The notes: generated from the sequence alone by a model not told the origin. A stretch of DNA of 20,000 nucleotides from an uncultured virus (IMG/VR IMGVR_UViG_3300009164_000062) (IMGVR_UViG_3300009164_000062); one strand, 5' to 3'; shown: positions 1 through 14,501, counted from the stretch's first letter. Translations and numbers: made by a program.

Positions 1-195
1 AAAAATATTATGGACACATTAACTAGTCACAATGTAGTCCCTGCATTGAGTTGTGGAATGAATGCAACATTAATACCACAAGTTACCGATAAGTTTGGTG
101 TTGATTACTTAGCGAATGTAGGCGGGGCATGTCACACACATCCTGATGGAATTAAGGCTGCTGTACGGGAATTACGAAATGCCATCGACAGATAA
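1..195 (+). CDS. C-terminal fragment of a RuBisCO large-subunit-like protein (probably form IV/RLP), truncated by the window edge
   Basis: Frame is open from base 1 (KNIMDTL...). PALSCGM and ANVGGACHTHPDGIKAAVRELR match the RuBisCO/RLP C-terminal motifs P-x-x-S-G-G and GGG-x-x-x-HP-x-G-x-x-A. Confidence 0.7.
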   Translation, partial: KNIMDTLTSHNVVPALSCGMNATLIPQVTDKFGVDYLANVGGACHTHPDGIKAAVRELRNAIDR

Positions 196-1132
196 CATCA
201 CAATACTTAAAGGCGGTTCTTTAAATTCAACATGTCTACATGAAAACTCTATGGGTAAGTTTGTTAGAAAAAAAATAGCTACAGATAAGAATAGAGAATA
301 TGGATATGTTCGATGGTATAGTCAGCTAAAGAAATTACAACGTTATAATAGTATGTTTCCTGGATTTGTTCCAAAGGTCTTGGATGCAGGAGTTAATGAT
401 AATGAAGCATACTTTGATATTGAATATATTGATGGTATAGATATTAAAACTTTGTTTAAGAATAATCTAATAGATGATGTAGAAAAGTTGAATCAATCAT
501 TATGGGAAGCGTTTGACTTGATACATCATAGGTCATATAGTCCACTGCGTAGTTCTCTTATGCTTTACTTTATGGAAGAAGTAGAACAGAAACTACATGA
601 TGCACTAGAGTTCCCAGAGTTCAGAGACTTTTACATGATGGATGTATATGAGTATAGGGGTGAAACATTTAGGGGCATGATCGGACAGCACGATAAGTTC
701 AAAAAACTATTCAATAGAGATATTACTAGTGAAGGCTATGTCCACGGCAATCCCACACTTGAAAACATACTATACAATACTGATACAAACAAAATAACCT
801 TTATTGATTTATATGAAGAAGGGATAGTTGATAGTAGATATTCAGATTATAGTCAGGTGTTACAATGCAGTAATAGTCACTATGGATTGATAAATGATTC
901 AATAGTAACAATTAATGATAATCAGATTATGTCCAATTATATTATACCAAATAAATTAGCAGAGTTCAATTCGTTGTTTATAGAAAATATTGAAGATAAC
1001 ACATCGTTGGTAATGCTATTTGAGGCTACCCAATATTTTAGAATGTTACCGTTTAAGTGTCATAGTGGTAACATATCTCACGCTAAGTTTTTTTATGGGT
1101 ATGGATGCTATCTAGTAAATAAATTACTATGA
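179..1132 (+). CDS. APH/choline-kinase-like phosphotransferase
   Basis: Gly-rich N-terminal loop (LKGGSLN), VRK, IEYIDG hinge, HGNPTLENILY and FIDLY motifs. ATG 179 overlapping the upstream gene end is preferred over 146. Confidence 0.7.
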   Translation: MPSTDNITILKGGSLNSTCLHENSMGKFVRKKIATDKNREYGYVRWYSQLKKLQRYNSMFPGFVPKVLDAGVNDNEAYFDIEYIDGIDIKTLFKNNLIDDVEKLNQSLWEAFDLIHHRSYSPLRSSLMLYFMEEVEQKLHDALEFPEFRDFYMMDVYEYRGETFRGMIGQHDKFKKLFNRDITSEGYVHGNPTLENILYNTDTNKITFIDLYEEGIVDSRYSDYSQVLQCSNSHYGLINDSIVTINDNQIMSNYIIPNKLAEFNSLFIENIEDNTSLVMLFEATQYFRMLPFKCHSGNISHAKFFYGYGCYLVNKLL

Positions 1133-2220
1133 TATGTAACATAAAAACATCACTCTTGATTGAATTTGAAATCCGTAAAGCTGTCAATGTATTATCGTTA
1201 TCCGAGGTTACTAGTAAAAGAAAAATTGTTATAATTGACAGAAATGTTTATGAGTTATATTCCGATCAACTATTTGATGACGTAGATTCGTTGTTATTTA
1301 TAGACTCGTCCGAAGAAAACAAAGATTGGGCAAATGCGGAAATGGTACTAACCTTCTTAGAAGAAAATAAAATATTACGTAGGTCAGAACCAGTCATAGC
1401 AATAGGTGGCGGAGTCTTATTAGACTTAGTAGGATTTTGCTGTAGTATATATCGTAGGGGTATTCCTTACATTCGTATACCCACGACATTACTAGCAATC
1501 GTTGACGCTAGTGTGGGAGCAAAAACAAGCATAAATCATTTTAATAGAAGAAATCGTTTGGGTAGTTTTTATCCACCACAACTAACATTGATTGACACTA
1601 CGTTTATCAAAACACAATCCGATAGAGAAATATCTAATGGCTTTGCAGAGATATTGAAATTAGCAATCGTGTTAGATAGTAAGTTGTTTGAATTAATAGA
1701 AACAGATTCAGATAAGTTACTACAGTGCAAATTTCAAAATACCACACATTCAACTGAAATAATTGAACGGGCAATTGCAGGTATGACCAAAGAACTTAAT
1801 GATAATTTGTGGGAGCAAGAATTAGAAAGACCAGTAGATTTTGGTCATTCATTCAGTCCTCTAATTGAAATGAAGAACCTACCTAATCTACTTCACGGAG
1901 AAGCAGTTATACTAGATTGTTTATTAAGTTGCTGTATATCAACTGTTAGAAACCTTCTTTCAGCGGATGAGTTAACTAGAATATTTAATTTGACTAGAAA
2001 AATGAATCTACCTGTAACTCATACTGATTTTTTAAATAGCACATTATTGTTAGAAGGCTTGTCTGATGTAATGAAGCACAGAAACGGAAATCAATACTTA
2101 CCTATACCAGCATCTATTGGACAGTGTAAAATCATCAATGACCTAACACCTACTGAATTAGAATCAGCAATACAACTAATGAGATTATATGAAAAAGACC
2201 ATATTGATTACTGGCACTAG
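1129..2220 (+). CDS. Sedoheptulose-7-phosphate cyclase (DHQS superfamily), 2-epi-5-epi-valiolone synthase (EEVS)-like
   Basis: IGGGVLLD, YRRGIPYIRIPTTLLAIVDASVGAK, ELNDNLWE, RPVDFGHSFSP and LLHGEAV. NLWE and DFGHSFSP resemble EEVS rather than AroB (LNxGHT) or DDGS (NLHE, AYGHTWSP). ATGA overlap with the upstream gene. Confidence 0.82.
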   Translation: MICNIKTSLLIEFEIRKAVNVLSLSEVTSKRKIVIIDRNVYELYSDQLFDDVDSLLFIDSSEENKDWANAEMVLTFLEENKILRRSEPVIAIGGGVLLDLVGFCCSIYRRGIPYIRIPTTLLAIVDASVGAKTSINHFNRRNRLGSFYPPQLTLIDTTFIKTQSDREISNGFAEILKLAIVLDSKLFELIETDSDKLLQCKFQNTTHSTEIIERAIAGMTKELNDNLWEQELERPVDFGHSFSPLIEMKNLPNLLHGEAVILDCLLSCCISTVRNLLSADELTRIFNLTRKMNLPVTHTDFLNSTLLLEGLSDVMKHRNGNQYLPIPASIGQCKIINDLTPTELESAIQLMRLYEKDHIDYWH

Positions 2221-2854
2221 TAGTGGTCTAGGTTTAGCTCTGGCAAAACACTATAGCAAGAATCACAATGTTATTGGATTAAGTAGAACCAATGTAGAAA
2301 TGCCTAATTATACTCATCATATTTGTGATATTAGTAACTTTGATAACGTATCTAAAACATTTTATTCCATCGGTGATAGTGAAATTGATTTACTGATTAA
2401 TAATGCAGGGGTATTTGATATGGTCAAGTTTACTCAAACATCTATCCATACTATTGACCGTGTTATTAATACTAACCTGTCAGGTGCCATGTATGTAACC
2501 AGATTAGCATTAGAGTCAATGCCAGATCATAGTAAAATAGTCTTTATCAATAGTGTAGCAGGATTAGAAGAATTAGAGAATCAAAGTATATATTGTGCTA
2601 GTAAGTATGGTCTAACTGCATTTGCTGGAATACTTGGTAAAGAACTAAGAGACAGACATATCAAAGTCTCTAGCATACACCCCGGTGGGATTAATACTCC
2701 ATTATGGGATAATACCCCATACCCGTTAGGAGATGCTACTAATGCAATGGATCCAAATTCTATAATAGAAATTATCGACCTAATTGTAAACAGTAAATAT
2801 GATATTGATTACAAAACTGTCAAAATGTTTCCGTCTATTGAATGGCATAACTGA
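2189..2854 (+). CDS. Classical short-chain dehydrogenase/reductase (SDR)
   Basis: TGTSSGLG cofactor motif, NNAG, catalytic S...YCASK, IHPGGINT. Confidence 0.93.
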   Translation: MKKTILITGTSSGLGLALAKHYSKNHNVIGLSRTNVEMPNYTHHICDISNFDNVSKTFYSIGDSEIDLLINNAGVFDMVKFTQTSIHTIDRVINTNLSGAMYVTRLALESMPDHSKIVFINSVAGLEELENQSIYCASKYGLTAFAGILGKELRDRHIKVSSIHPGGINTPLWDNTPYPLGDATNAMDPNSIIEIIDLIVNSKYDIDYKTVKMFPSIEWHN

Positions 2855-2864
2855 AAGATAAACT

Positions 2865-2981
2865 ATGAGAAACTTATTTCAAACACTATATTATAATACA
2901 ATTGGAAAATTAGTTAGAGAATACAAATATCGTAAACGACTTAAAGAGTTGAAGAAACGAGATCCATTTATCTATAAGTGA
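2865..2981 (+). CDS. Small basic protein, 38 aa (MRNLFQTLYYNTIGKLVREYKYRKRLKELKKRDPFIYK), not in the ORF track
   Basis: ATG 2865 to TGA 2979-2981 fills the gap between the SDR and the carbamoyltransferase. Its stop overlaps the next GTG (GTGA). Confidence 0.7.
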   Translation: MRNLFQTLYYNTIGKLVREYKYRKRLKELKKRDPFIYK

Positions 2982-4474
2982 CAATGAAAAATACAAATTA
3001 CATAGGAATATCCGCTGGATTCCATGATGCATCTTTAGCTGTAATCAAAGACGGCGACATATTATTTGCGGGTCATAATGAACGATATAGCGGGATAAAA
3101 AATGATAAAGATATAGGCTCTGCAATAGTCAAAGATGCATTGCAATATGTTCAAGGTGACTATGAGTTACATTACTATGAACGTCCTTGGTTAAAGTACT
3201 TGAGACAATTACGCTCAGGGGAAAATCCAAATTTAAACACATTATTTCCTAGCAGATACTTAGCTCAAGGTGCTTACAAGAGCCTAGGTAAAAAGAAAAT
3301 ACATACTCATGGTCATCATCTTTGCCATGCGGCTGCTGGGTTTCAAACAAGTAATTTTACAGAAGCCACAGTATTGATAATTGATGCCATTGGGGAGTTT
3401 GACACTATAAGCGTCTGGGATGCTAGATACGATAACAATCATAAAGCTGTGTATAAAAAAATATACAGTAAAAAATACCCTGACAGTTTAGGTTTATTTT
3501 ACAGTTCGTTAACAGATAGGATTGGATTAAAACCAAACGAAGAAGAATACATTACAATGGGTATGGCAGCATATGGTGATAGTAAATACTATCCACAGAT
3601 GCATATGGATCTGCTATCCGATAGTTACAACATAGATTTTAAAGACAATTTACATTTGGGATTTCCGGGTGAATATTTACCAGATGCTAGTAATGAAGAT
3701 TTAGCCGCCAGTGGACAATTACTATTAGAAGTCTTATTAAAAAATATATTACAACGTGCAAAAATTAACGGTTGTAGTAAGAATCTAGTATACGGCGGCG
3801 GTGTAGCACTAAACTGTTTAGCAAATAGATTTCTAGGAGAATACTTTGATAATATATGGATTATGCCTAGCCCCGGTGATAGTGGTAGTAGCCTTGGTGC
3901 TGCCGCTCTGGCTTTTGGGGGTAGAGTTAACTGGACCAATTCTTATCTCGGGTATGATATTCCTGGCCCTTATCCCGTTAATCAGTTATTGGATAGGCTA
4001 CTTACTGAACAAATTGTGGGAGTTGCCTCAGGACGAGCCGAGTTCGGCCCCCGCGCACTCGGAAACCGTAGCCTCCTTGCAGACCCTAGAGGCAGCAAGA
4101 TTAAGGAGAAAGTAAATGAAATTAAACGAAGACAGAAGTTCAGACCCTTTGCGCCAGTCATTCTGGAAGAGTATGTTCATAATTATTTTAACATGCCTGT
4201 CAATTGGCGTGATAGTCAGTATATGCAAGTCATCAGTACTTGTAGGTATCCTGACTTATATCCTGCTATCGTCCATGTTGACGGCACTAGTCGTGTCCAA
4301 ACTGTCCCGAATGATGGTAGCGGAATCAGAGAACTCCTTGAAAAATGGTATGTCTTAACTGGTTGTCCTATGTTGCTTAACACATCACTAAACATTAGGG
4401 GTGAGCCAATGGTTAATACTAGATTAGATGCAGATAGATTTGAAATGCATTATGGTATAAAGGTTCTTTCGTGA
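2978..4474 (+). CDS. Carbamoyltransferase, CmcH/NodU/TobZ family
   Basis: HDAS, HHLCHAA, IDAIGE, MGMAAYG, GGVALNC, EFGPRALGNRSLLADP, RPFAP, HVDGTSRVQTV, LLNTSLN. The start could be ATG 2984. Confidence 0.95.
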   Translation: MTMKNTNYIGISAGFHDASLAVIKDGDILFAGHNERYSGIKNDKDIGSAIVKDALQYVQGDYELHYYERPWLKYLRQLRSGENPNLNTLFPSRYLAQGAYKSLGKKKIHTHGHHLCHAAAGFQTSNFTEATVLIIDAIGEFDTISVWDARYDNNHKAVYKKIYSKKYPDSLGLFYSSLTDRIGLKPNEEEYITMGMAAYGDSKYYPQMHMDLLSDSYNIDFKDNLHLGFPGEYLPDASNEDLAASGQLLLEVLLKNILQRAKINGCSKNLVYGGGVALNCLANRFLGEYFDNIWIMPSPGDSGSSLGAAALAFGGRVNWTNSYLGYDIPGPYPVNQLLDRLLTEQIVGVASGRAEFGPRALGNRSLLADPRGSKIKEKVNEIKRRQKFRPFAPVILEEYVHNYFNMPVNWRDSQYMQVISTCRYPDLYPAIVHVDGTSRVQTVPNDGSGIRELLEKWYVLTGCPMLLNTSLNIRGEPMVNTRLDADRFEMHYGIKVLS

Positions 4475-7008
4475 TTGATTCGTCAGAATTAGATAGAAGG
4501 GAACAATTATGGTCAAGTGGTTATTGGGATATCCCTGAAAACATTGATACTAGTAATTTTGATTTTGATTGGAGACCATTCAAGTATGACAGACCATACA
4601 TACATCAGTTTGGTACACAACATCAAAAGACAGGTGGACCAAGATTTGTAATACCAAAAAACGAAGGTATAAAATATCAAACAAGCCAACATGCAATAAG
4701 ATTACCTACGCCAGACTTAAGAAATTGGAGACCACTAATAGCAAACGTAGAGTTTGATTATAGCTGGCATCCTGATGAAACAGAACCGCCTTTCGTGTAT
4801 GTATTTGGAAATCAATGGTATGACTCAGTTACAATGCCAACTATGCAGTACAAAATTTCAGGTGCAACTGAAAAAAAATATATTGATACAATTAAAGCCA
4901 CATTAACACCTGATAAAACTAATTGGATTATTCCAGATGATATAGAAGATGATTTTGATTATAGTTGGGTACCGAGTCCTACAGAGCCACCACTAATCTG
5001 GGAATTCGGAACACAACATCAAAAGACAGGTGGTCCTAGTTATGTTGCAAAAAACGGAGTTCATACTAAGTACTCATCGGCACTAATTGCTACTAAGAAA
5101 GACAATAAAGAAGATAGATGCTGGAGACCTTTATTACCTAACATTGATTTTGATTTTAGTTGGCATCCAGATAAAAATGATCCGCCCTACATATATGTGT
5201 TTGGCAATCAATGGTATGATAGTCTAACAATGCCTACGTTACTGTATCGTGTAAAGGGTGCTACTGAAAAGAAGTATATGACTGATATCAAAGTCACATT
5301 AACTCCTAATAAATCTATGTGGACTATACCAGATGACATAGAAGATGACTTTGATTATAGCTGGCTACCGCACCCAGACGAACCAGCATATATATGGCAG
5401 TTTGGAACACAATGGCAAAAAAATGGCGGCCCCAAATACAATGCGCCTAACGCAACTGTAATAAAACATTTTGATTTGCTCAGAGCAACTAAAAAAAATA
5501 ATAAAGATAATCGTGCATATAGACCAGTGGTCTCAAATGTAGAGTTTGATTATAGCTGGCATCCTGATGAAGACGAACCTCCTTACATATATGTATTTGG
5601 AAATCAATGGCATAACTCAGAAGATATGCCTACTATTTTGTATCGTGTCAAGGGTGCAATTGAAAAGAAATATATTAACGATATAAAAGCTACATTAACA
5701 CCTGATAAAGAAAATTGGGAAATACCTGAAGATATCGAAGACTCTAATTTTGACTATAGCTGGTGCCCAAAGCCAACTGAACCTCCTACTATATTTGTTT
5801 TTGGAACACAACATCAACGTACAGGCGGACCAACTTATCGTTTTAGAAATGGGACAGATAAAAAATATATTAATACAATGAGAGTTACAAAGAAACCTAA
5901 TATTCGCAATTGGCGTTTCATTGAGGTAATTGATAGAGATACATTTGACTTTAGTTGGCACCCCGAGGAACTAGAAGAAAAATTTAATCACATTGTTGGT
6001 ACTAAATTTCATACACCTGAAATAATGCCTGCAATCATGTACCGAGGTCATGATAACGCAACAGAAAACAAATATATTGATAAAGTGCAAGCTGATTTAA
6101 AGATAGATAAAATCGTTTATGAGGATAGCATATTTGATGCATGTATGGAGAATAAGTTTACAACAGCATACATGCATTTTGTAAAGGGTACAAGTAATTA
6201 TAATCACAACCTAATTAAAGCAGATAAAATCAGTGTGCATTTATTCCCAAGTGAAGCTATTATACCTAAAGCAGCCGTGACTTTCTTTTATGATAAGATT
6301 ACTGACTATGACTATGTTATTGAACACAAGTTTGAAGAAACAGTTGAACCACTGGATATTATATTCTTTAGTAATGGTGAGGCATGTGCGGATGCTAATT
6401 ATGAACATTTACTGTCACTTAATTTACCTAATAGGATCGTGCGAATTGATGGTGTTAAAGGTCGTGTAGCAAGTCAACATGCGGCAGCAAATGCTAGTAA
6501 TACCCCGTGGTATTTCTTAGTCAATGCTAAATTGAAAGTAAGAGATGATTTTGACTTCAATTGGCAACCCAACATATATAAATCACGCAGACATTATATA
6601 TTCAGAGCAACTAATCCTGTAAACGGGTTAGTTTACGGACATCAAGCTATTGTCGCTAACAATAAAAAATTAACATTGAATACTGTAGTACGCGGGTTAG
6701 ACTTTACTATGGATAGCACAACTGAAGTAGTAGATATTGATTCTGGTATAGCTATGTATAATACTAACGAATGGGATACTTGGAGAACAGCGTTCCGTGA
6801 ATGTATTAAGTTGTCACATGCTACCGACAATGACAGTAAGTTTAGATTAAGTATTTGGCTTACAAAAGGTGACGGAAAGTTCGGAGAGCAGTCCGTCAAC
6901 GGTGCAGAAGATGCGGTTAAATACTACAAAGAAGTTGGCGGGGATTTTAATAAACTTATGTTGACTTATGATTGGGAATGGTTGCGTATACGTTTTGACC
7001 AAAAATAA
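4471..7008 (+). CDS. Large protein with about 8 N-terminal FDYSW-type repeats and a C-terminal glycosyltransferase-like (GT-A-like) domain
   Basis: Alternating repeats visible in the translation. The C-terminal DIIFFSNGE...RIDGVKG...TPWYFLVNAK...TWRTAFRE segment resembles GT-A-like phage proteins. GTGA overlap with the upstream gene. Confidence 0.6.
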   Translation: MIDSSELDRREQLWSSGYWDIPENIDTSNFDFDWRPFKYDRPYIHQFGTQHQKTGGPRFVIPKNEGIKYQTSQHAIRLPTPDLRNWRPLIANVEFDYSWHPDETEPPFVYVFGNQWYDSVTMPTMQYKISGATEKKYIDTIKATLTPDKTNWIIPDDIEDDFDYSWVPSPTEPPLIWEFGTQHQKTGGPSYVAKNGVHTKYSSALIATKKDNKEDRCWRPLLPNIDFDFSWHPDKNDPPYIYVFGNQWYDSLTMPTLLYRVKGATEKKYMTDIKVTLTPNKSMWTIPDDIEDDFDYSWLPHPDEPAYIWQFGTQWQKNGGPKYNAPNATVIKHFDLLRATKKNNKDNRAYRPVVSNVEFDYSWHPDEDEPPYIYVFGNQWHNSEDMPTILYRVKGAIEKKYINDIKATLTPDKENWEIPEDIEDSNFDYSWCPKPTEPPTIFVFGTQHQRTGGPTYRFRNGTDKKYINTMRVTKKPNIRNWRFIEVIDRDTFDFSWHPEELEEKFNHIVGTKFHTPEIMPAIMYRGHDNATENKYIDKVQADLKIDKIVYEDSIFDACMENKFTTAYMHFVKGTSNYNHNLIKADKISVHLFPSEAIIPKAAVTFFYDKITDYDYVIEHKFEETVEPLDIIFFSNGEACADANYEHLLSLNLPNRIVRIDGVKGRVASQHAAANASNTPWYFLVNAKLKVRDDFDFNWQPNIYKSRRHYIFRATNPVNGLVYGHQAIVANNKKLTLNTVVRGLDFTMDSTTEVVDIDSGIAMYNTNEWDTWRTAFRECIKLSHATDNDSKFRLSIWLTKGDGKFGEQSVNGAEDAVKYYKEVGGDFNKLMLTYDWEWLRIRFDQK
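4525..6060 (+). repeat. Intragenic tandem repeat: about 4 copies of a ~130-aa unit, each made of two ~65-aa sub-repeats
   Basis: A-type W-x-IP-x-DI...FD[YF][SD]W...FGTQ[HW]Q[KR][TN]GGP occurs 4 times. B-type [WY]RP...FD[YF]SWHP...YVFGNQW occurs 3 times plus one degenerate copy. DNA repeats such as gtagagtttgattatagctggcatcctgatgaa lie near 4748 and 5539. Confidence 0.9.
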
Positions 7009-7288: not shown

Positions 7289-7355
7289 GTTATTGCTGTA
7301 TGAAGCAAAGAGAAAAGTGTTCTGGACGGGGGTGCGAATCCCCCCAGGTCCACCA
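7289..7355 (+). ncRNA. ssrA: Permuted tmRNA, acceptor piece (normal 3' part, ending in CCA)
   Basis: GAC variable loop, T-arm GGGGG-TGCGAAT-CCCCC (7328-7344), acceptor 3' strand CAGGTCC (7345-7351), discriminator A and CCA (7353-7355). The 5' boundary is approximate. Confidence 0.9.
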
Positions 7356-7367
7356 TAAGGAAGTTTG

Positions 7368-7736
7368 ATGCGTATTAATGAGATTGCCGGTGCAAAACTA
7401 AGTTTCAATACAACAAAAGGTAGTAATACCATTGGTGTTGAAATGAACGTTGGCGGGCAATATGCAGGAACGTTTCAATACGATGCAGATAGTGGAAGAA
7501 GTTTAGTAGAGTTAGATCCAACCCTTCAAGGCAAGGGATTAGGTAAAATTCTAATACTAAAAGGAATCTATACTGCCATCATGTCAGGATTAGACTATGT
7601 AGAAGATGAGTCACGCACCCAAGCATTTGACAATGCTATGGATAGTTTGGCAGACTCGGGATACATAGTCAACGATGATGAGTATTGGTATGTTACCGGT
7701 GACGGTGAGCAGTATGTCAAACAAGTTTCTTTATGA
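7368..7736 (+). CDS. GNAT-fold (acetyltransferase-like) protein encoded inside the tmRNA intervening segment
   Basis: 122-aa ORF with AAGGA RBS at 7357-7361. VELDPTLQGKGLGKIL matches the GNAT acetyl-CoA motif A (Q/R-x-x-G-x-G). Confidence 0.62.
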   Translation: MRINEIAGAKLSFNTTKGSNTIGVEMNVGGQYAGTFQYDADSGRSLVELDPTLQGKGLGKILILKGIYTAIMSGLDYVEDESRTQAFDNAMDSLADSGYIVNDDEYWYVTGDGEQYVKQVSL

Positions 7737-7737
7737 T

Positions 7738-7962
7738 GGGCCTGACCTAGATTCGACAGGGCAACAAGTAATAGAGTGGACAGCACGGTAATGTGAAAAC
7801 CGTAGGGTTGGGGGAAAAGCAATAGTCGCTATGCTCATAGCATAGAAAGACGTTAGGCCCGGCCGAAGAAGCGAAAAAAGTAACCGCAAACGACTCACAG
7901 TTCGCATTAGCAGCCTGATAAAGGCAGCTTAGGGTAAGACATACCTCGTAACAGAAAATCAG
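7738..7962 (+). ncRNA. ssrA: Permuted tmRNA, coding piece (normal 5' part plus tag reading frame)
   Basis: GGGCCTG (7738-7744) pairs with CAGGTCC, giving the G3-U alanine identity pair. It is followed by GATTCGAC and by CAGGGCA pairing with TGTTCTG (7318-7324). Tag frame GCA AAC GAC TCA CAG TTC GCA TTA GCA GCC TGA TAA. The 3' boundary is approximate. Confidence 0.9.
7886..7918 (+). other. tmRNA proteolysis tag reading frame (A)ANDSQFALAA*
   Basis: Resume codon GCA follows an A-rich AAAAAAGTAACC context. The AND...ALAA pattern is typical of proteobacterial SsrA tags, with tandem stops TGA TAA. Confidence 0.92.
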
Positions 7963-9602: not shown

Positions 9603-9857
9603 ATGAAGATTGAAAACGCACTAGATTGGCAAGATGTCCATTCTGCCCTGCGTAAACAAATGAATAGTATTGGGTACAACCCCGATCTTCAAAAAATGCT
9701 AAACAATATTACCAATATGGTAAGTGAACTCAGTAAGACTGAAGTGGAAGCTAGACGTATTCGCAAATCTAATATAGTTGATATACAACTAGATAAAATT
9801 AACAAAGCAATAGATCATTTAGAAAAATTGTTGTTAATGGCTCAATTGATGCGCTAA
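9603..9857 (+). CDS. Hypothetical helical protein
   Basis: 84-aa ORF with coiled-coil-like heptads. Its end overlaps the stop of the convergent gene. Confidence 0.7.
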   Translation: MKIENALDWQDVHSALRKQMNSIGYNPDLQKMLNNITNMVSELSKTEVEARRIRKSNIVDIQLDKINKAIDHLEKLLLMAQLMR

Positions 9858-11206
9858 AGTTTCTTAACGTCAACTAACAAATCAAATCCAACTTCTTTGA
9901 TATCCATAACAAAGTTATGTTCTTTGGCAATATGTTCAAAGACTTTTCTACTGAACCCAGTACGATGACGCATGAAATCTACCCGATTCTTATGCACACT
10001 ATGACGATGCCCATAGATAATATCAATAGGACTAATTGGTCCACCCGCACTTTCATACACTACATCAAGTAGATCACCCGATGCAATCTTTTCACCTATA
10101 CTCTGTAGGTTAGGTGTCAAAATTCTGACATAGCCTCCCGGCTTACATACACGTAATAATTCGCTGATTACACTTGACACTTTAAAGTAATCAATGTGTT
10201 CAATCATATGCGATGTGTATGCACAATCTACAAAATTATTTGGTATGTGACTTATATCAGTTACGTCAGCAAGTATATCCGGATTGAATTTAGTGTCAAT
10301 GTCCAAGGACACTTCACGATACCCTTCAAACACTTCTGTGTACAATAAATCTTTAATGGGCATCCCCCCAAATCCAACGTTCAATACTGTTTTGTCAACT
10401 GCGGGTCGTAAAGGTTTGGGCCTATCATATCTGTCCCACCAATCACGCCAATTCATTTGATCATCCAATTCAGTATCGTATTGCATGTGTAATGCTAGAC
10501 TTGGAATAGGAACAAACAAATAATATCCTCTTTCCCTAAACAATTTATTGATAGTGTTATCTTCCATCTTGCTATCAACTTTATGTTTACCCATTGCTTC
10601 AAACACATCCCAATTATCAGTTAGAACCTTATGATGTACCATAAAACAACTAGCGGTCATTGGTAATGTTCTCCAATGACGACCTTGATGACGAATGATA
10701 TGGCTTTGTACTACTGTGTTTTCGGGTATATATTTGTATGGATCATCATATGGATAGATACATGTAAAATTACCCAATGCATAACTAGTAAACATCATGG
10801 TTTGGATCATGTCATAAATGGCAGTAGTATCGTATAGATAATCATCTTGTGCAAAGTACACAATCTCTTCACCATAATCACGACCATGTTCATAACAACG
10901 TAATATGCTTGGCATGATTCCATATGTGTCAAGTGCTATGAATTGTGTTTTGAATGTAGCAATGCTCAGATTATTTTTAATCTCATTTACTGTTGCCTCA
11001 TCACTATGATCATCAAATACAACTAATTCAAAATCACTATCTAAGTATAATTCTTTGGCGTAGTTCATGGTATCAACCAGGCTGCGACTACACCTTCTGG
11101 TTATTTCGCTTTTAGGTGCTTTACAAAATCTTTCATTATTGTTCATGCCCAAATAATGTTGGCTATCACCTTTGCTGTGGGTTTGGAGTACGACTAGTAT
11201 TTTCAT
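9854..11206 (-). CDS. Fusion of a GT-A/GT2-like glycosyltransferase and a class I SAM-dependent methyltransferase
   Basis: N-terminal LVVFDDHS and IVYFAQDDY. C-terminal VLNVGFGG, SLDID, SHMIEH and LRVCKPGG. Start placed at MKILVVLQ (11206) because the longer ORF runs through the divergent promoter. Confidence 0.8.
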   Translation of the reverse strand: MKILVVLQTHSKGDSQHYLGMNNNERFCKAPKSEITRRCSRSLVDTMNYAKELYLDSDFELVVFDDHSDEATVNEIKNNLSIATFKTQFIALDTYGIMPSILRCYEHGRDYGEEIVYFAQDDYLYDTTAIYDMIQTMMFTSYALGNFTCIYPYDDPYKYIPENTVVQSHIIRHQGRHWRTLPMTASCFMVHHKVLTDNWDVFEAMGKHKVDSKMEDNTINKLFRERGYYLFVPIPSLALHMQYDTELDDQMNWRDWWDRYDRPKPLRPAVDKTVLNVGFGGMPIKDLLYTEVFEGYREVSLDIDTKFNPDILADVTDISHIPNNFVDCAYTSHMIEHIDYFKVSSVISELLRVCKPGGYVRILTPNLQSIGEKIASGDLLDVVYESAGGPISPIDIIYGHRHSVHKNRVDFMRHRTGFSRKVFEHIAKEHNFVMDIKEVGFDLLVDVKKL

Positions 11207-11233
11207 ATATGTACTTAGTATTGGTTCCAGCGG

Positions 11234-11262
11234 TTGACAATAAATCCAGAGTCTGCTATACT
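11234..11262 (+). promoter_or_regulatory. Strong sigma70-like (early) promoter, probably giving a leaderless mRNA
   Basis: TTGACA-N17-TATACT with extended -10 TG. The ATG at 11269 sits at the expected +1. Confidence 0.8.
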
Positions 11263-11268
11263 TACAGT

Positions 11269-11736
11269 ATGGAAATCGAAATACTAGCACACGGAAACAC
11301 AAGTCAATCACGCATTGAATTGCTTACCAAAGCATCAAAATTCTATGCAAAATACTTAAACATCCAAAAATTTAACTATAAAGTACTAGTTGTAAGTGCC
11401 CCTAACTTACGCAAACACGACGGTAACAACGGCATTTGTAGTAAAACTGGTGATAAAGAAATCACTATTGCAGTAGATAGTACATTAGCATTACCTCAAC
11501 TGCTAATGACACTTGCCCACGAAATGGTTCATGCCAAACAGTATGTTCGTGGTCAGTATCGTGGTGAGTTATCACGTAACGGTAGAATGAAAAAAATCTG
11601 GTTGGGTAAACCGTATTCCGTTGCGTATTTGAAACGCCCTTGGGAACGTGAAGCCTTCCGCCGAGAAGGTGAATTGGTATTTGCACTACTTGATCAAGTT
11701 GCCCGAAAAATAAAAAAGAGTAAAAAAGTTGGTTGA
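11269..11736 (+). CDS. Putative zinc metallopeptidase (HExxH)
   Basis: TLAHEMVHAKQY and a downstream PWEREA. Start set at ATG 11269 by the promoter position, not 11116. Confidence 0.75.
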   Translation: MEIEILAHGNTSQSRIELLTKASKFYAKYLNIQKFNYKVLVVSAPNLRKHDGNNGICSKTGDKEITIAVDSTLALPQLLMTLAHEMVHAKQYVRGQYRGELSRNGRMKKIWLGKPYSVAYLKRPWEREAFRREGELVFALLDQVARKIKKSKKVG

Positions 11737-11801: not shown

Positions 11802-12905
11802 ATGGCATCTCAAGTCTCTGACAATCACACTATCACTAGTGTACAAACTCGCAAAGCAATTTTATCTGCTTTCAAAACTAAACGTCCCGTTTTTCTCTGG
11901 GGACCTCCCGGCATCGGTAAGTCTGATGTTGTTTCTGAAATTACTCAGGAACTAGGTGGTATTATGATTGATTTGCGTATGGCGCAAATGGAACCCACTG
12001 ACATTCGTGGTATTCCCTTCTTCAATAAAGAGAACGGTAAAATGGACTGGGCTCCCCCTGTTGACTTGCCTGATGAAGAACTTGCAAGTAAGTATCCAGT
12101 TGTAGTTTTGTTTCTTGACGAAATGAACTCGGCACCCCCATCAGTACAAGCGGCAGGTTATCAACTTGTACTTAACCGTCGTGTAGGTAAATATTTCTTG
12201 CCCGATAATGTCGTTATCGTAGCGGCAGGTAATCGTGATAGTGACAAAGGTGTTACTTATCGTATGCCGATGCCCCTTGCTAATCGTTTCATTCACCTTG
12301 AAATGCGAGCCGATTTTTCTTCATGGCAGACATGGGCTGTAAAAAACAACATTCACAAAGACGTTGTTGGTTACTTGTCGTTTGCAAAACAAGACATGTA
12401 CGACTTTGATGCTAAATCATCAAGCCGTGCGTTTGCAACACCCCGTAGTTGGTGTTTCGTTAGTGACTTGTTGAAAGACGAGGACAACATGGACACTGAT
12501 ACACAATTCAACTTGATTGCAGGTGCAGTAGGTGAAGGTCTTGCTGTTAAGTTTTCAGCACACCGCAAAATCTCAGGTAAGATGCCCGATCCTGCTGATA
12601 TTCTTGCAGGCAAAGTGAAAGACTTGTCTGTTAAAGAAATTAGTGCAATGTACGCATTGACTGTTGGTATGTGCTATGAGTTGAAAGATGCAGTAGAACA
12701 GAAAAAAGTTAAAGCAAAAGAGTTCCACGAAATGGCTCAAAACTTTATTGACTACATGATGAACAACTTTGAAACTGAGTTGGTTGTTATGGGTGCAAAG
12801 ATTGCATTAAAAACATACGAACTGCCTATCGAACCTAGTCAGTTGAGAAACTTTGACGAGTTCCACAAGAAGTACGGCAAGTACATTGTAGAAGCCGGTA
12901 ACTAA
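11802..12905 (+). CDS. MoxR/dynein-related AAA+ ATPase
   Basis: AAGGAG RBS, Walker A GPPGIGKS, Walker B LFLDEMN, sensor AAGN, arginine finger LANRF, TPRSW. Confidence 0.92.
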   Translation: MASQVSDNHTITSVQTRKAILSAFKTKRPVFLWGPPGIGKSDVVSEITQELGGIMIDLRMAQMEPTDIRGIPFFNKENGKMDWAPPVDLPDEELASKYPVVVLFLDEMNSAPPSVQAAGYQLVLNRRVGKYFLPDNVVIVAAGNRDSDKGVTYRMPMPLANRFIHLEMRADFSSWQTWAVKNNIHKDVVGYLSFAKQDMYDFDAKSSSRAFATPRSWCFVSDLLKDEDNMDTDTQFNLIAGAVGEGLAVKFSAHRKISGKMPDPADILAGKVKDLSVKEISAMYALTVGMCYELKDAVEQKKVKAKEFHEMAQNFIDYMMNNFETELVVMGAKIALKTYELPIEPSQLRNFDEFHKKYGKYIVEAGN

Positions 12906-13226: not shown

Positions 13227-14501
13227 ATGAGTGAAGTAATCGGCAAACGTAAAAAGAATCGTAGTGATAAGTTTGATAAACTTATTGGACCAACTGACCC
13301 TAAGATTGATGCACAGGCACGTGAACGATTAGTAGCGGCACGTATTGGTCTATTGTTGCGTCATAGTTTCTTTGGTAATCTTGCTACTCGCATGAAACTA
13401 GTTAACGCCGATGAATGGTGTGCAACAGCGGCAACAGATGGTTTAAAATTCTATTACAATAGCCGCTTTATTATGATGTTGAAGCCTAAAGAAGTTGAAT
13501 TCTTAGTAGGTCATGAAGTGTTGCACGTTGTTTATGATCATATGGGTCGCCGCAATGATAGAGATCCTCAAATCTGGAATATTGCTGATGACTATGCAGT
13601 TAATGCAGACTTGAAACGTCACAATGTGGGTCAATTCATTACTACTGTGCCTTGCTTGTATGAAACAAAATACGACGGTAAGCCAGCTGAAGAAATTTAT
13701 GATGACTTGATGAAGAATGTACAGAAAATCAATATTGATCAATTGATTGATATGTTGCTTGATGATCATATGGATGGTGATGATGGTGAAGGTGAGGGTG
13801 AAGGCGACGGTGATGGAAACAAGCCCGGTCGTCCACGTATGACACAAGAAGAAAAAGATCGTGCCCGTGCCGAAATGAAACAGGCAATTATTCAAGCCGC
13901 ACAAAGTGCAGAGGCTGGTACACTACCTAAAGGTGTTGAACGTCTTATTAAAGATGTAACTGAACCTCAAATGCCTTGGCGTGAACTGATTCAAACTAAC
14001 TTGACTAGTGCAATTCGCACTGACTATAGTTGGATGCGAACCAATCGTAAAGGTTGGCACATGGATGCTATTATGCCCGGTACTACTCCCGGTGAAGAGA
14101 TTGACGTTGTTGTTTCACTTGACATGTCAGGTAGTATTAGCGACAAACAAGCTAAAGCATTCTTAGGTGAGATTGCCGGCATGATGGATGCATTTGATGG
14201 TTACAAGGTACATGTATTCTGTTTTGATACTGATACATATAATCCGCAAGACTTTGATAGTGAGAACATGGACAGTATTGAAGAATACGAACCACAAGGT
14301 GGCGGCGGTACTGACTTTGATTGCATCTTTGATTATCTAAAGAAAAATGCTATTGAACCTAAACGTTTGATTGTGTTTACTGACGGATATCCTTGTGGTT
14401 CATGGGGCGACCCTGATTTTTGTGATACTACATGGATCATTCATGGGGACAAAAATCCAAATCCCCCTTTCGGTCAGTTTGCTTTGTATGAGGAAAAATA
14501 A
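13227..14501 (+). CDS. DUF2201-type putative metallopeptidase plus C-terminal vWA domain (partner of the MoxR AAA+)
   Basis: TAATDG, HEVLH (HExxH), WNIADD, an acidic G/D/E linker, MIDAS DMSGS, GGGGTDF and VFTDG. Confidence 0.9.
   Translation: MSEVIGKRKKNRSDKFDKLIGPTDPKIDAQARERLVAARIGLLLRHSFFGNLATRMKLVNADEWCATAATDGLKFYYNSRFIMMLKPKEVEFLVGHEVLHVVYDHMGRRNDRDPQIWNIADDYAVNADLKRHNVGQFITTVPCLYETKYDGKPAEEIYDDLMKNVQKINIDQLIDMLLDDHMDGDDGEGEGEGDGDGNKPGRPRMTQEEKDRARAEMKQAIIQAAQSAEAGTLPKGVERLIKDVTEPQMPWRELIQTNLTSAIRTDYSWMRTNRKGWHMDAIMPGTTPGEEIDVVVSLDMSGSISDKQAKAFLGEIAGMMDAFDGYKVHVFCFDTDTYNPQDFDSENMDSIEEYEPQGGGGTDFDCIFDYLKKNAIEPKRLIVFTDGYPCGSWGDPDFCDTTWIIHGDKNPNPPFGQFALYEEK

What the first reader, a model, noticed from the sequence alone, without database searches (positions are those of the whole stretch)
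1..7008. Phage cluster for a C7-cyclitol or unusual sugar: RuBisCO-like protein, kinase, EEVS-type cyclase, SDR, carbamoyltransferase and GT-like protein
Seen: seven consecutive, mostly overlapping genes. Established: EEVS converts sedoheptulose-7-phosphate to 2-epi-5-epi-valiolone, the entry to acarbose/validamycin-type cyclitols and gadusol. RLPs act as enolases, isomerases or (de)carboxylases on sugar phosphates, and CmcH/NodU enzymes O-carbamoylate sugars. Inference: the phage may build a carbamoylated carbasugar or branched sugar for decorating virion proteins, host surface glycan or its DNA, or a small metabolite. This enzyme combination matches no pathway I recognise. The cluster continues upstream of the window.
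Basis: partly seen in the sequence, partly recalled or inferred. Interest (0 to 1): 0.8.

Follow-up and report, generated by a model that had tools for sequence, protein, structure and literature searches.

The report
Phage carbasugar genes inside glycan island
A fragment of a large freshwater phage carries genes that probably turn the common metabolite sedoheptulose 7-phosphate into a carbon-ring "pseudo-sugar", spliced between a RuBisCO-like sugar module and a carbamoyltransferase pair; I found nothing like it described for viruses, and no step has been tested at the bench.

Summary
The genes are real. There are six in window 1-7008, not seven, and the cluster runs at least 13 genes further upstream. 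The cyclase is an EEVS-type sedoheptulose-7-phosphate cyclase, not AroB. It scores best against ValA (283 bits; DDGS 188, DHQS 154), carries the Asp/Pro/His residues I recall as the EEVS fingerprint, and falls in a viral clade on the SH7P-cyclase side of a tree.

The "one pathway" reading holds only in part. Comparison with 44 viral and 46 cellular loci shows three units:
- a RuBisCO-like (form IV, non-carboxylating) operon with its own sugar-1-P nucleotidyltransferase, cupin and GDPD-like protein;
- a kinase-like/EEVS/SDR trio;
- a carbamoyltransferase paired with the 845-aa protein, which has seven beta repeats plus a GT-A-like domain lacking DxD.

In this lineage the trio sits between the RLP and the carbamoyltransferase. 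It lacks the nucleotidyltransferase and DUF7796 partner it has in 23 other phage loci. The kinase-like protein has an APH fold, but Asn replaces the catalytic Asp.

Best reading: a reduced, phosphorylated and probably NDP-activated C7-cyclitol for a glycan.

This scan reached the same two-cassette reading earlier on other phage DNA. Phage RLPs are already published. My searches found no paper on phage EEVS.

The parts
1..195 (+). C-terminal 64 codons of a 372-aa form-IV RuBisCO-like protein (full gene L001:6-1124:-). It is the last gene of the RLP-type operon.
   Evidence: PF00016. The alignment to P. horikoshii RuBisCO 2CWX keeps KPK, K-E-D-E, H327, S379, G381 and GG403/404. It changes E60G, T65N, W66P, N123G, H294Q, R295K and K334Y (spinach numbering recalled).
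146..1132 (+). Kinase-like protein of the APH / MTR-kinase / fructosamine-kinase fold, with Asn in place of the catalytic Asp. The true start is probably at 179.
   Evidence: AF2 model pLDDT 89.1. Foldseek gives APH(2'')-IVa E 4.5e-08, prob 1.0, TM 0.54, plus MTR kinase and fructosamine-3-kinase. HGNPTLEN and FIDxYEE are invariant in 15 of 15 sequences. Asn stands at that site in 66 of 92 family rows and Asp in the 26 most distant. A natural kinase-cyclase fusion exists, P0313.
1129..2220 (+). EEVS-type sedoheptulose-7-phosphate cyclase (sugar phosphate cyclase superfamily).
   Evidence: ValA 4P53 E 3.3e-83, 283 bits, against DDGS 188, DHQS 154 and DOIS 81. Residues VDFGHSFSP and KHRNG. Tree. 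AroB model TIGR01357 scores 216 bits, below its cut-off of 305.
2189..2854 (+). Classical short-chain dehydrogenase/reductase, the presumed ketoreductase for the cyclitol ketone.
   Evidence: PF00106 1.7e-35. TGTSSGLG, NNAG and Ser...YCASK are intact. It is always next to the cyclase in viral loci.
2978..4474 (+). NodU/CmcH-type carbamoyltransferase, first gene of the carbamoyltransferase/845-aa pair. It follows a 123-nt gap.
   Evidence: PF16861 2.5e-48, PF02543 7.3e-33, phrog_1601 3.5e-89. The NodU equivalog model scores 136 bits against a cut-off of 1000. It is paired with homologues of the 845-aa protein in L103/104, L105, L106 and L107/108.
4471..7008 (+). 845-aa protein with about seven beta-rich repeats of roughly 65 aa (FDxSWxP...FGxQW), then a C-terminal GT-A-like domain (about residues 620-845) that lacks the DxD motif.
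   Evidence: No Pfam, PHROG or PDB sequence hit. More than 3000 relatives, none with a common Pfam family. AF2 pLDDT 88.9. Foldseek lists only GT-A enzymes, best E 2.6e-3, prob 0.94-0.99. VIA Z up to 8.5 (rmsd 5.1, 208 aligned) on residues about 620-845. The upstream 315-aa protein g09 aligns to residues 658-782 (E 5e-12) and has D-G-D where this protein has N-A-K.

Best explanation
Window 1-7008 is the downstream end of a mosaic glycan-biosynthesis island of about 19 genes, on a fragment of a large freshwater phage. It holds three units.

(1) An RLP-type operon, upstream in L001. It encodes a twitch-domain radical SAM enzyme, a GDPD-like protein, two DUF7796 proteins, an SGNH-like protein, an unknown, a sugar-1-phosphate nucleotidyltransferase (g16), a metal cupin and a non-carboxylating form-IV RLP. 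Inferred role: it makes and activates an unidentified rare sugar from a ketose phosphate.

(2) A trio inserted after the RLP. The EEVS-type cyclase converts sedoheptulose 7-phosphate to 2-epi-5-epi-valiolone (inferred from family and fingerprint). The SDR reduces the ring ketone (inferred). The atypical kinase-like protein phosphorylates the new pseudo-anomeric hydroxyl (inferred, uncertain). The only nucleotidyltransferase in the operon, g16, would then make an NDP-cyclitol, and a transferase of the island would pass it to a glycan (inferred).

(3) A carbamoyltransferase plus a repeat/GT-A-like protein. This is a separately inherited tailoring pair.

Shown here: gene identities, cyclase subtype, RLP residue pattern, folds and the modular distribution. 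Not shown: any chemistry, the nucleotide used, or the acceptor.
For: Cyclase subtype:
- PDB scores rank ValA 283 bits > DDGS 188 > DHQS 154 > DOIS 81.
- Asp and Pro stand in VDFGHSFSP and His in KHRNG, as in ValA. DDGS has Ala/Thr there and AroB has Asn..His.
- 15 of 15 viral and metagenomic cyclases form one clade (100/100) on the SH7P-cyclase side, split 100/100 from 3 AroB.

Trio as a unit:
- Kinase-like, cyclase and SDR are adjacent in all 27 viral loci with enough context.
- 23 of these have their own NTP_transferase and a DUF7796-like gene directly upstream.
- A 728-aa natural fusion of the kinase-like domain with a DHQS-family cyclase exists.
- The SDR catalytic motifs are intact.

Kinase fold.

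Mosaic origin:
- g16 scores 160-238 bits to RLP-operon nucleotidyltransferases but 45-63 bits to trio-type ones.
- g12 and g13 match RLP-operon DUF7796 paralogues at 139-192 bits, against 42-62 bits for trio-type ones.
- L044 shows rSAM...RLP followed directly by a carbamoyltransferase. L105 shows g07-g09, rSAM and carbamoyltransferase/845-aa homologue with neither module.

Glycan context: neighbouring genes in related loci are GT2/7/8/11/25, methyltransferases, GDP-mannose dehydratases, DegT aminotransferases and epimerases.

Weak hint of expression: contigs at least 97% identical from three metatranscriptome libraries of two studies lie on the RLP tail, kinase, cyclase and SDR. RNA libraries can contain DNA.
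Against: - The kinase-like protein has Asn where APH-type kinases have the catalytic Asp (66 of 92 family rows; the motif rule is recalled). The phosphorylation step may therefore be wrong or unusual.
- In this lineage the trio has no nucleotidyltransferase or DUF7796 of its own. NDP-activation depends on g16 accepting a second substrate, which is untested.
- No ROK 7-kinase, epimerase, dehydratase or GT-B pseudoglycosyltransferase of the acarbose/validamycin route turned up in the Pfam scans.
- The record is only about 12% of a genome, so partners may lie elsewhere.
- The fingerprint residue rule comes from a paper I could not read.
- I could not reproduce a bacterial home for the trio: 0 of 301 Pelagibacterales, 2 weak matches in 401 Bacteroidota, and 0 of 5 RLP-bearing genomes.
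Confidence: 0.55

Rival explanations
1. One integrated pathway. The RLP, cupin, kinase-like protein, EEVS, SDR and carbamoyltransferase all act on one substrate line, for example the RLP reshaping a heptulose or cyclitol-pathway phosphate. The result would be a single carbamoylated product activated by g16.
For: The fused order NTP-transferase/cupin/RLP/kinase/EEVS/SDR is kept in this phage, L004/L005, L006 and L007 at 50-70% protein identity. Only one nucleotidyltransferase is present. The fused-type cyclases form their own subclade (98/90, 7 rows; the three with known context are all fused). Overlapping stop and start codons link RLP to kinase to cyclase to SDR.
Against: Each unit exists alone far more often. 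23 of 27 informative trio loci have no RLP. 7 viral and 46 cellular RLP loci have no kinase, cyclase or SDR within up to 10 kb. The carbamoyltransferase follows the 845-aa protein rather than the cyclase, and a 123-nt gap separates it from the SDR.
Confidence: 0.15
2. The trio makes a free small molecule rather than a glycan building block. This could be a cyclitol or cyclitol phosphate acting as a glycosidase inhibitor, signal or protectant.
For: Known EEVS products are mostly free metabolites such as validamycin, acarbose, kirkamide and gadusol (passages of PMC12904256; PMC4426668). Here the trio lacks its own nucleotidyltransferase and transferase, and its kinase-like protein is atypical.
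Against: In 23 loci a nucleotidyltransferase and a DUF7796-like gene directly precede the trio. No gadusol-type methyltransferase-oxidoreductase, ROK kinase or aminotransferase is next to it in this window. The surrounding genes are glycan enzymes.
Confidence: 0.15
3. The island modifies phage DNA, by sugar or cyclitol hypermodification of a base, rather than a protein or cell-surface glycan.
For: Phages do glycosylate DNA (recalled knowledge). The window also encodes a thymidylate-synthase homologue and a nuclease.
Against: The ThyA homologue passes the thymidylate synthase equivalog models (NF002497 331 bits against a cut-off of 327; TIGR03284 328 against 108). The Pfam scans found no hydroxymethylase-type or DNA-base-transferase family. 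Bacterial homologues of the RLP unit sit beside LicD, GT2, GT9 and GT25 genes, a cell-envelope context.
Confidence: 0.05
4. The cyclase is an ordinary 3-dehydroquinate synthase (aroB), carried as an auxiliary gene for aromatic amino-acid synthesis.
For: Source annotations call most homologues '3-dehydroquinate synthase'. The best NCBIfam model is aroB, at 216 bits.
Against: The aroB score is below its cut-off of 305. ValA scores 283 bits against 154 for the best DHQS structure. The DHQS-type Asn..His and Lys-site residues are replaced. The split from AroB has 100/100 support. No other shikimate gene is present.
Confidence: 0.02

Closest known systems
GDP-valienol branch of acarbose/validamycin biosynthesis: AcbC/ValA, AcbM/ValC, AcbO, AcbL, AcbN, AcbU, AcbJ, AcbR/VldB, AcbS (passages of PMC9200736 read)
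   Same: The logic matches. An EEVS cyclises sedoheptulose 7-phosphate, a reductase acts on the ring, a kinase puts phosphate on the pseudo-anomeric C-1, a sugar-type nucleotidyltransferase makes an NDP-cyclitol, and a transferase uses it.
   Different: No ROK 7-kinase, epimerase, dehydratase or 7-phosphatase was found, so a saturated rather than valienol-type cyclitol is expected. The kinase-like protein has an APH fold with Asn at the catalytic-Asp site. [quoted passage not shown] The setting is a phage glycan island, not an actinomycete antibiotic cluster.
[quoted passage not shown]
   Same: It is the best solved relative (E 3.3e-83, aligned over residues 25-362) and shares residues at the Asp/Pro and His sites.
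   Different: The phage enzyme belongs to a separate clade of 15 viral and metagenomic sequences. It lacks about 50 N-terminal residues of ValA (363 against 420 aa in the chain). Its activity is untested.
Phage 'form IV-like' RuBisCO-like proteins reported by Jaffe et al. 2019 (PMC6389311; abstract and passages read)
   Same: Both are divergent RLPs on phage contigs from many environments. They keep some but not all RuBisCO residues, their function is unknown, and they group with a Beckwithbacteria sequence. A Beckwithbacteria locus, L056, is also among my hits.
   Different: The passages I read describe no gene context for the phage RLPs. Here the RLP is tied to a nucleotidyltransferase in 41 of 46 cellular loci, to a cupin in 13 and to a GDPD-like protein in 20. 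It also occurs in complete Pelagibacter and isolate Legionella and Azospirillum genomes.
RLP-plus-cupin pairs of methionine salvage and the R. rubrum MTA-isoprenoid shunt, and bifunctional NTP_transferase+cupin enzymes of the ManC type (all recalled, not checked in a paper here)
   Same: An enolising RLP stands next to a metal cupin, and a nucleotidyltransferase next to a small cupin. The best small solved match of that cupin is titled mannose-6-phosphate isomerase (7ZVM, E 1.1e-4).
   Different: No MtnA, MtnB or MtnK set is present. The RLP differs from RuBisCO at seven substrate and catalytic positions. No substrate can be assigned.
NodU/CmcH/TobZ O-carbamoyltransferases
   Same: Both domains are present at full length, and it matches the phage family phrog_1601.
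   Different: It is far below the NodU equivalog cut-off (136 against 1000 bits). It is genetically paired with a repeat/GT-A-like protein of unknown role, and its acceptor is unknown.

Membership tests
[quoted passage not shown] | DHQS-family two-domain fold | tested here: met
   PF01761 3.5e-36 and PF24621 3.3e-22.
[quoted passage not shown] | Closer to characterised EEVS than to DDGS, DHQS or DOIS | tested here: met
   ValA 283 bits, DDGS 5TPR 188, DHQS 3OKF 154, DOIS 2D2X 81. In the tree the clade lies on the SH7P-cyclase side, 100/100 from AroB, but its position relative to the Nostoc DDGS is unresolved.
[quoted passage not shown] | Active-site fingerprint that separates EEVS from DDGS and DHQS (Asp and Pro after the metal-binding His, His near the C-terminus). 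The rule is recalled from Kean et al. 2014, which is not held. | tested here: met
   VDFGHSFSP and KHRNG in this protein. D..P and H stand in 15 of 15 viral and metagenomic rows and in 4 ROK-linked bacterial cyclases. The Nostoc MAA-cluster enzyme has A and T; 3 AroB have N..H and A/V.
[quoted passage not shown] | Converts sedoheptulose 7-phosphate to 2-epi-5-epi-valiolone | not testable with these tools
   Needs an enzyme assay.
Bona fide RuBisCO (forms I-III) | Full set of catalytic and substrate residues, including K334, H294, N123 and E60 (spinach numbering, recalled) | tested here: not met
   K334Y, H294Q, R295K, N123G, E60G, T65N and W66P in the alignment to 2CWX. These positions are invariant or conserved in 7 phage RLPs.
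Form IV RuBisCO-like proteins | RuBisCO large-chain fold with the carbamylated Lys and metal ligands (K201, D203, E204) retained | tested here: met
   PF00016 2.3e-33. KPK and K-E-D-E motifs are invariant. Placement in a named RLP clade was not tested.
APH / protein-kinase-like small-molecule kinases | Bilobal kinase fold | tested here: met
   AF2 pLDDT 89.1. Foldseek gives prob 1.0 and TM about 0.55 to APH(2''), APH(4), MTR kinase and fructosamine-3-kinase.
APH / protein-kinase-like small-molecule kinases | Catalytic-loop Asp of HxDxxxxN (motif recalled) | tested here: not met
   HGNPTLEN in 15 of 15 sequences. Asn stands there in 66 of 92 aligned family rows, and Asp only in the 26 most distant. 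The Lys (FVRK) and the Mg-binding Asp (FIDxYEE) are kept.
Acarbose/validamycin-type NDP-cyclitol pathway | ROK-family cyclitol 7-kinase (AcbM/ValC) next to the cyclase | tested here: not met
   The Pfam scans of the window and the upstream genes found no ROK family. ROK genes do flank the bacterial cyclases of R. rhizogenes, A. vitis, S. clavuligerus and B. bombysepticus.
Acarbose/validamycin-type NDP-cyclitol pathway | Dedicated cyclitol-1-phosphate nucleotidyltransferase | tested here: inconclusive
   An NTP_transferase lies three genes upstream of the kinase, but it is of the RLP-operon type. 23 other phage loci have a trio-specific one. Substrate is untested.
GT-A glycosyltransferases (for the 845-aa protein) | GT-A (nucleotide-diphospho-sugar transferase) fold | tested here: met
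   Residues about 620-845. Foldseek best E 2.6e-3 with prob 0.94-0.99, GT-A enzymes only. VIA Z 8.5 / rmsd 5.1 / 208 aligned, and Z 8.4 in the wide search. Z is middling.
GT-A glycosyltransferases (for the 845-aa protein) | DxD metal/nucleotide-sugar motif after the fourth strand (recalled rule; some GT-A families lack it) | tested here: not met
   The sequence reads ..FLVNAK.., where the homologous upstream protein g09 has ..LIDGDN... N685 and K687 are invariant in 32 relatives.
NodU/CmcH carbamoyltransferases | Kae1-like N domain plus YrdC-like C domain | tested here: met
   PF02543 and PF16861. It is not a NodU orthologue: 136 bits against a cut-off of 1000.

The most novel reading that the evidence does not exclude
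In this phage lineage the two sugar modules have become one machine. The RLP-operon nucleotidyltransferase and DUF7796 transferases have been co-opted to activate and install a phage-made C7 carbasugar. A surface or virion glycan would then carry a non-hydrolysable pseudo-sugar, next to a second rare sugar made by a new RLP/cupin reaction on a ketose phosphate. That would be the first carbasugar-containing glycan, the first assigned role for phage RLPs, and a new catalytic solution in an Asn-type kinase.
Probability: 0.2. Interest if true: 0.85.

Novelty: new variant of a known kind. Interest (0 to 1): 0.68.

Why it matters
C7-cyclitols are known as free antibiotics, enzyme inhibitors and sunscreens of bacteria and animals. 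A virus-encoded route, wired to sugar-activating and transferring genes, would mean that phages build glycans containing a carbocyclic sugar mimic that glycosidases cannot cleave. That would bear on phage-host recognition, resistance to depolymerases and rare-sugar biochemistry.

The finding also gives the published but unexplained phage RuBisCO-like proteins a concrete genetic context. They sit beside a nucleotidyltransferase, a cupin and a GDPD-like protein, and this set also occurs in SAR11 and other bacteria. That makes their function directly testable.

The family is large: more than 6500 cyclase relatives at E <= 1e-20 among the candidates scored. Close matches to this stretch occur in freshwater and lake metagenome runs from many studies.

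Tried and rejected
- GenBank phages. blastn of 1-7008 found nothing. tblastn with the cyclase found only bacterial-type aroB in mislabelled or contaminated records at 25-34% identity. tblastn with the RLP found nothing.
- Single-sequence PDB searches of the kinase-like protein, the 845-aa protein and the cupin gave nothing usable. Profiles or folds were needed.
- The genome search 'own' with PF00483 found no match, although hmmscan finds g16. I treat this as a miss of the tool's first look and draw no inference. tblastn found no second nucleotidyltransferase in the 44-kb fragment, but the record is only about 12% complete.
- Bacterial home of the trio. The kinase profile was not found in 301 Pelagibacterales genomes, gave only 2 weak partial matches (E 7e-8 and 4e-6) in 401 Bacteroidota, and the single protein was not found in 5 RLP-bearing genomes. 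No positive control genome was included, so this is 'not found', not 'absent'.
- Promoter and terminator scans were at chance level: 40 found against 40.4 expected, and 6 against 4.6.
- hhalign of the DUF7796 family against the 845-aa family showed no relation (prob 0.1).
- CDP-polyol / LicD idea for the RLP unit. It was prompted by a LicD gene beside the Legionella nautarum locus and weak IspD hits. I downgraded it because g16 scores best to sugar-1-phosphate nucleotidyltransferases.
- Kean et al. 2014 (ValA structure) is not held, and the ebo-operon paper gave no residue list. The fingerprint rule is therefore recalled.
- ARAGORN found no tmRNA, although Rfam did.
- RNA-library contigs leave several parts of the window uncovered. 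I draw no conclusion from the holes.
- Atlas look-ups gave only 'hypothetical protein' for the 845-aa protein, and 'capsular polysaccharide biosynthesis protein' / DUF7796 for g12. These are leads only.

Full report
**What is there.**
The window is the minus strand of G000:C1:2915-22914. G000 is a single 44,259-bp linear IMG/VR virus record with a CheckV completeness estimate of 12%. It is therefore a fragment of a much larger phage. Close homologues of its genes sit on contigs of 260-367 kb.

Window 1-7008 holds six co-directional ORFs:
- the last 64 codons of a RuBisCO-large-family gene;
- a weakly APH-like protein (146-1132);
- a DHQS-family cyclase (1129-2220);
- a classical SDR (2189-2854);
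- after a 123-nt gap, a NodU/CmcH-type carbamoyltransferase (2978-4474);
- an 845-aa protein with no family match, overlapping the carbamoyltransferase by 4 nt (4471-7008).

Upstream, in locus L001, the same strand carries 13 more genes. Reading towards the window they are:
- five unknowns;
- g09, 315 aa;
- a twitch-domain radical SAM protein (NF033640, 328 bits, cut-off 170);
- g11, 143 aa;
- two DUF7796-like paralogues, g12 and g13;
- a DUF6071 protein, g14;
- g15;
- an NTP_transferase, g16;
- a 108-aa protein, g17;
- the full 372-aa RLP.

**The cyclase.**
Against solved structures the best match is ValA, the validamycin EEVS (4P53, E 3.3e-83, 283 bits). It is well ahead of the DDGS 5TPR (188 bits), the best DHQS (154) and DOIS (81). 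The aroB equivalog model scores 216 bits, below its cut-off of 305.

In the residue-level alignment the phage protein reads VDFGHSFSP and KHRNG, where ValA reads VDFGHSFSP and KHRDG. The DDGS has IAYGHTWSP and LTRDG, and DHQS has LNLGHTFGH. I recall from Kean et al. 2014 that these Asp/Pro and His positions are the EEVS fingerprint. That paper is not held. The eLife gadusol paper confirms only that such a 14-site fingerprint exists (passages).

I built a 24-row maximum-likelihood tree. The reference rows are:
- four ROK-linked "sedoheptulose 7-phosphate cyclases" from plasmids, plus a fifth, not ROK-linked, from Streptomyces sp. NBC_00467;
- a Nostoc enzyme from a mycosporine-type cluster;
- three AroB.

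All 15 viral and metagenomic sequences fall in one clade (100/100). That clade lies on the SH7P-cyclase side, split 100/100 from AroB. All 15 carry the Asp/Pro/His pattern. The branching among EEVS-like and DDGS references is unresolved. No experimentally characterised EEVS sequence could be put in the tree.

**The partners.**
The SDR has intact TGxxxGxG, NNAG and Ser/Tyr-x3-Lys motifs.

The kinase-like protein folds with high confidence (pLDDT 89.1). It matches APH(2''), APH(4), methylthioribose kinase and fructosamine-3-kinase (prob 1.0, TM about 0.55). Its catalytic loop reads HGNPTLEN in 15 of 15 homologues, with Asn where this fold normally has the catalytic Asp (recalled motif).

A profile search of 1.84 billion representatives found 832 relatives at E <= 0.001, 338 at <= 1e-10 and 95 at <= 1e-30. 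I aligned this protein with the 91 of the 150 listed hits that have at least 295 residues. Of these 92 rows, the 66 closest carry Asn together with an ID-x-Y-E/D-E motif. The 26 most distant carry the canonical HGD with ID-P-N-x-E-like motifs. This looks like a remodelled but conserved active site rather than decay, though it makes the phosphorylation step an inference.

One relative, P0313 (728 aa), is a natural fusion of this domain with a DHQS-family cyclase.

**Three units, not one.**
Of 34 IMG/VR loci found with the cyclase, 27 have enough upstream sequence to judge. All 27 show kinase-like, cyclase and SDR side by side.
- 23 have their own NTP_transferase and a DUF7796-like gene immediately upstream and no RLP.
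- 4 (two near-identical to this phage, plus L006 and L007) have the fused order g16/g17/RLP/kinase/cyclase/SDR seen here.

Of 10 loci found with the RLP, 3 are those same fused contigs. The other 7 carry rSAM/g11/DUF7796/DUF6071/g15/NTP-transferase/g17/RLP, or parts of it, with no kinase, cyclase or SDR.

A scan of one genome per prokaryotic species found 46 loci with an RLP 33-52% identical. They include a complete Pelagibacter chromosome, SAR11 single-cell genomes, three Legionella species, Azospirillum oleiclasticum, Turneriella, Verrucomicrobiae, CPR bacteria and DPANN archaea. Of the 46:
- 41 have a g16-like nucleotidyltransferase beside the RLP;
- 13 have a g17 homologue;
- 20 have a g11 homologue;
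- none has the trio.

Their neighbours include LicD, GT2, GT9, GT25, a CMP-sugar-type cytidylyltransferase, methyltransferases, a radical SAM/SPASM enzyme and a carbamoyltransferase. Some MAG contigs may themselves be viral.

g16 is clearly the RLP-operon type: 160-238 bits to those nucleotidyltransferases, against 45-63 bits to trio-type ones. Both DUF7796 paralogues are likewise of the RLP-operon type. The trio therefore entered an existing RLP-type operon between the RLP and the carbamoyltransferase. Compare L044, where the RLP is followed directly by a carbamoyltransferase. The trio left its own activating and DUF7796 genes behind.

The fused-type cyclases form their own subclade (98/90). 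The fused genes have diverged together to 50-70% identity. This points to one old event, kept by selection.

**The carbamoyltransferase and the 845-aa protein.**
Homologues of the 845-aa protein were found in six contexts. In five a carbamoyltransferase lies directly or closely upstream: this phage, L103/104, L105, L106 and L107/108. In L105, L106 and L107/108 there are no RLP or cyclase genes in the locus. L010 is the exception, with a 1386-aa homologue and no carbamoyltransferase hit. L105 shows g07/g08/g09/rSAM/one ORF/carbamoyltransferase/homologue. That is this phage's arrangement with g11-g21 (the RLP unit and the trio) absent.

The protein family is very large (3113 hits at E <= 1e-5 among the candidates scored) and has no common Pfam family. 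The alignment shows about seven beta-rich repeats of roughly 65 aa, followed by a strongly conserved C-terminal domain.

The AF2 model is confident (pLDDT 88.9). Foldseek returns only GT-A enzymes, including ppGalNAc-transferases, SunS, WrtF, ArnC, GtrB, PBCV-1 A64R and mimivirus R699, at weak E (best 2.6e-3) but prob 0.94-0.99. VIA-align gives Z up to 8.5 (rmsd 5.1, 208 aligned) for residues about 620-845. The 50 rows of the Foldseek-independent search are glycosyltransferases or nucleotidyltransferases of that fold, as far as their titles tell. The Z values are middling.

g09 is a free-standing homologue of this domain (E 5e-12). It has D-G-D where the 845-aa protein has the invariant N-A-K. 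"GT-like" is right at the fold level, but catalytic competence is open. The repeats were not searched on their own.

**The RLP unit.**
Aligned to P. horikoshii RuBisCO, the phage RLPs keep KPK, the K-E-D-E carbamate/metal motif, H327, S379, G381 and G403/G404. They change E60, T65, W66, N123, H294 (Gln), R295 (Lys) and K334 (Tyr). Numbering is recalled. They should bind metal and enolise a phospho-ketose, but not carboxylate.

Other members of the unit:
- g17 is a small metal cupin with an HxH...E motif. Its profile hits quercetinase (8e-6) and a 113-aa protein titled mannose-6-phosphate isomerase (1.1e-4).
- g11 matches the catalytic N-terminal half of glycerophosphodiester phosphodiesterases (HRG..EN..E.D..HD; 3I10, E 1.7e-5).
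- g14 begins GDSWTYG, which I recall as the SGNH/GDSL block I.
- g16 scores best to sugar-1-phosphate nucleotidyltransferases.
- In L047 and L035 the g16 homologue is a longer protein (452 and 456 aa). In L047 it carries an N-terminal HAD_2 domain.

My working model is low-confidence inference. The RLP isomerises or epimerises a ketose phosphate. The cupin converts it to an aldose phosphate. A mutase and g16 then make an NDP-sugar.

Phage "IV-like" RLPs were reported in 2019 with function unknown (PMC6389311). A literature search for RLP together with cupin, nucleotidyltransferase, cytidylyltransferase and polysaccharide listed no paper holding the RLP term among the 15 shown of 58.

**Mechanism proposed for the finding.**
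1. [quoted passage not shown]
2. The SDR reduces it to a saturated epi-valiolol.
3. The kinase-like protein phosphorylates it at the pseudo-anomeric hydroxyl.
4. g16 activates it as an NDP-cyclitol.
5. A DUF7796 or GT-A-like protein of the island transfers it.

Step 1 rests on family and fingerprint. Steps 2-5 rest on gene linkage and on analogy with the GDP-valienol route (PMC9200736, passages). The carbamoyltransferase may decorate this or any other sugar of the glycan.

**Expression and habitat.**
Close matches to 1-7008 occur in 24 listed runs of 21 studies, labelled freshwater, lake water or simply metagenome. One of them may be the source sample.

Contigs from three metatranscriptome libraries (two studies), at least 97% identical, lie on the RLP tail and kinase (1-308, 438-619, 672-1152, 657-880, 919-1155), the cyclase (1408-1573) and the SDR (2277-2486, 2575-2981). 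RNA libraries can carry DNA, so this is a weak hint only.

**Novelty.**
I reached the two-cassette reading, before opening the scan's notes. The notes show that earlier agents reached the same reading on other phage genomes, so the scan has found this before on other DNA.

New here:
- the trio's loss of its own nucleotidyltransferase and DUF7796 in the fused lineage;
- the Asn-for-Asp clade structure of the kinase-like family and the kinase-cyclase fusion;
- the carbamoyltransferase/845-aa pair as a third unit;
- the GT-A-like fold without DxD;
- the GDPD-like and cupin assignments;
- the count of cellular RLP loci.

The earlier notes' claim that the trio also occurs in bacterial surface-sugar loci was not reproduced in the genomes I searched.

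Literature:
- 'valiolone' with 'phage' gave 4 papers, none on a phage gene by title or abstract.
- A six-term search pairing EEVS, cyclitol and SH7P-cyclase terms with viral, jumbo-phage and AMG terms listed no paper joining them among the 10 shown of 68.
- '3-dehydroquinate synthase' with phage, glycosyltransferase and carbamoyltransferase gave 2 irrelevant papers.
- A 2026 review of cyclitols has no occurrence of phage, virus or viral in its main text.

Noticed in passing
window 7294-7918 (+): A permuted (two-piece) tmRNA gene. Rfam RF04321 scores 90.8 bits (gathering 47), E 1.6e-17, over the full model, with an intervening segment of about 380 nt. The coding piece reads a tag ending ...FALAA before UGA. 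ARAGORN missed it. The ORF at 7365-7736 lies inside it and is probably spurious. This stretch has the highest summed contig depth in an RNA library (323) and in a DNA run (130), and several contigs skip about 352-391 nt here, so relatives differ in the intervening segment.
   Followed up: partly
window 9854-11311 (-): A 485-aa protein on the opposite strand with weak GT2/GT43 matches in its N-terminal half and a class-I methyltransferase domain at its C-terminus. It may be a further glycan-tailoring enzyme of the island.
   Followed up: no
window 17916-18878 (+): An NAD-dependent epimerase/dehydratase (PF01370 1.9e-42), closest to dTDP-glucose 4,6-dehydratase but below the cut-off. It is a second nucleotide-sugar enzyme, far from the island and just before the Rz/Rz1-like pair.
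   Followed up: no
window 11802-12905 and 13227-14501 (+): A MoxR-like AAA ATPase (phrog_1297, 3.7e-100) followed by a DUF2201 metallopeptidase-like/VWA protein (phrog_1314, 1.2e-110). The DUF2201 gene recurs near the carbamoyltransferase/845-aa pair in L106-L108.
   Followed up: no
L001:13244-19999 (-) and beyond (contig positions 47-8302 of the reverse strand): A single ORF of about 2751 aa at the upstream end of the record, followed by proteins with virion-structural PHROG matches (g02 phrog_11259, g03 phrog_14394). The glycan island therefore starts right after a structural block.
   Followed up: no
L087:8651-9502 (-), Legionella nautarum contig: A LicD-family gene (PF04991, 1e-42) lies about 500 nt upstream of the bacterial RLP/nucleotidyltransferase pair, on the opposite strand. 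This hints that in some bacteria the RLP product is transferred as a phospho-linked group.
   Followed up: partly
P0293 (480 aa): One homologue of the kinase-like protein carries a C-terminal GIY-YIG/NUMOD3 homing-endonuclease module. This suggests mobile-endonuclease activity around this cassette in some phages.
   Followed up: no
L047:7877-9235 (+) and L035:2425-3795 (+): In two viral loci the RLP-operon nucleotidyltransferase is a longer protein (452 and 456 aa). In L047 it is fused to an N-terminal HAD_2 domain (beta-phosphoglucomutase-like, 2e-32). L035 was not scanned. This may be the missing mutase or phosphatase step of the RLP unit.
   Followed up: no
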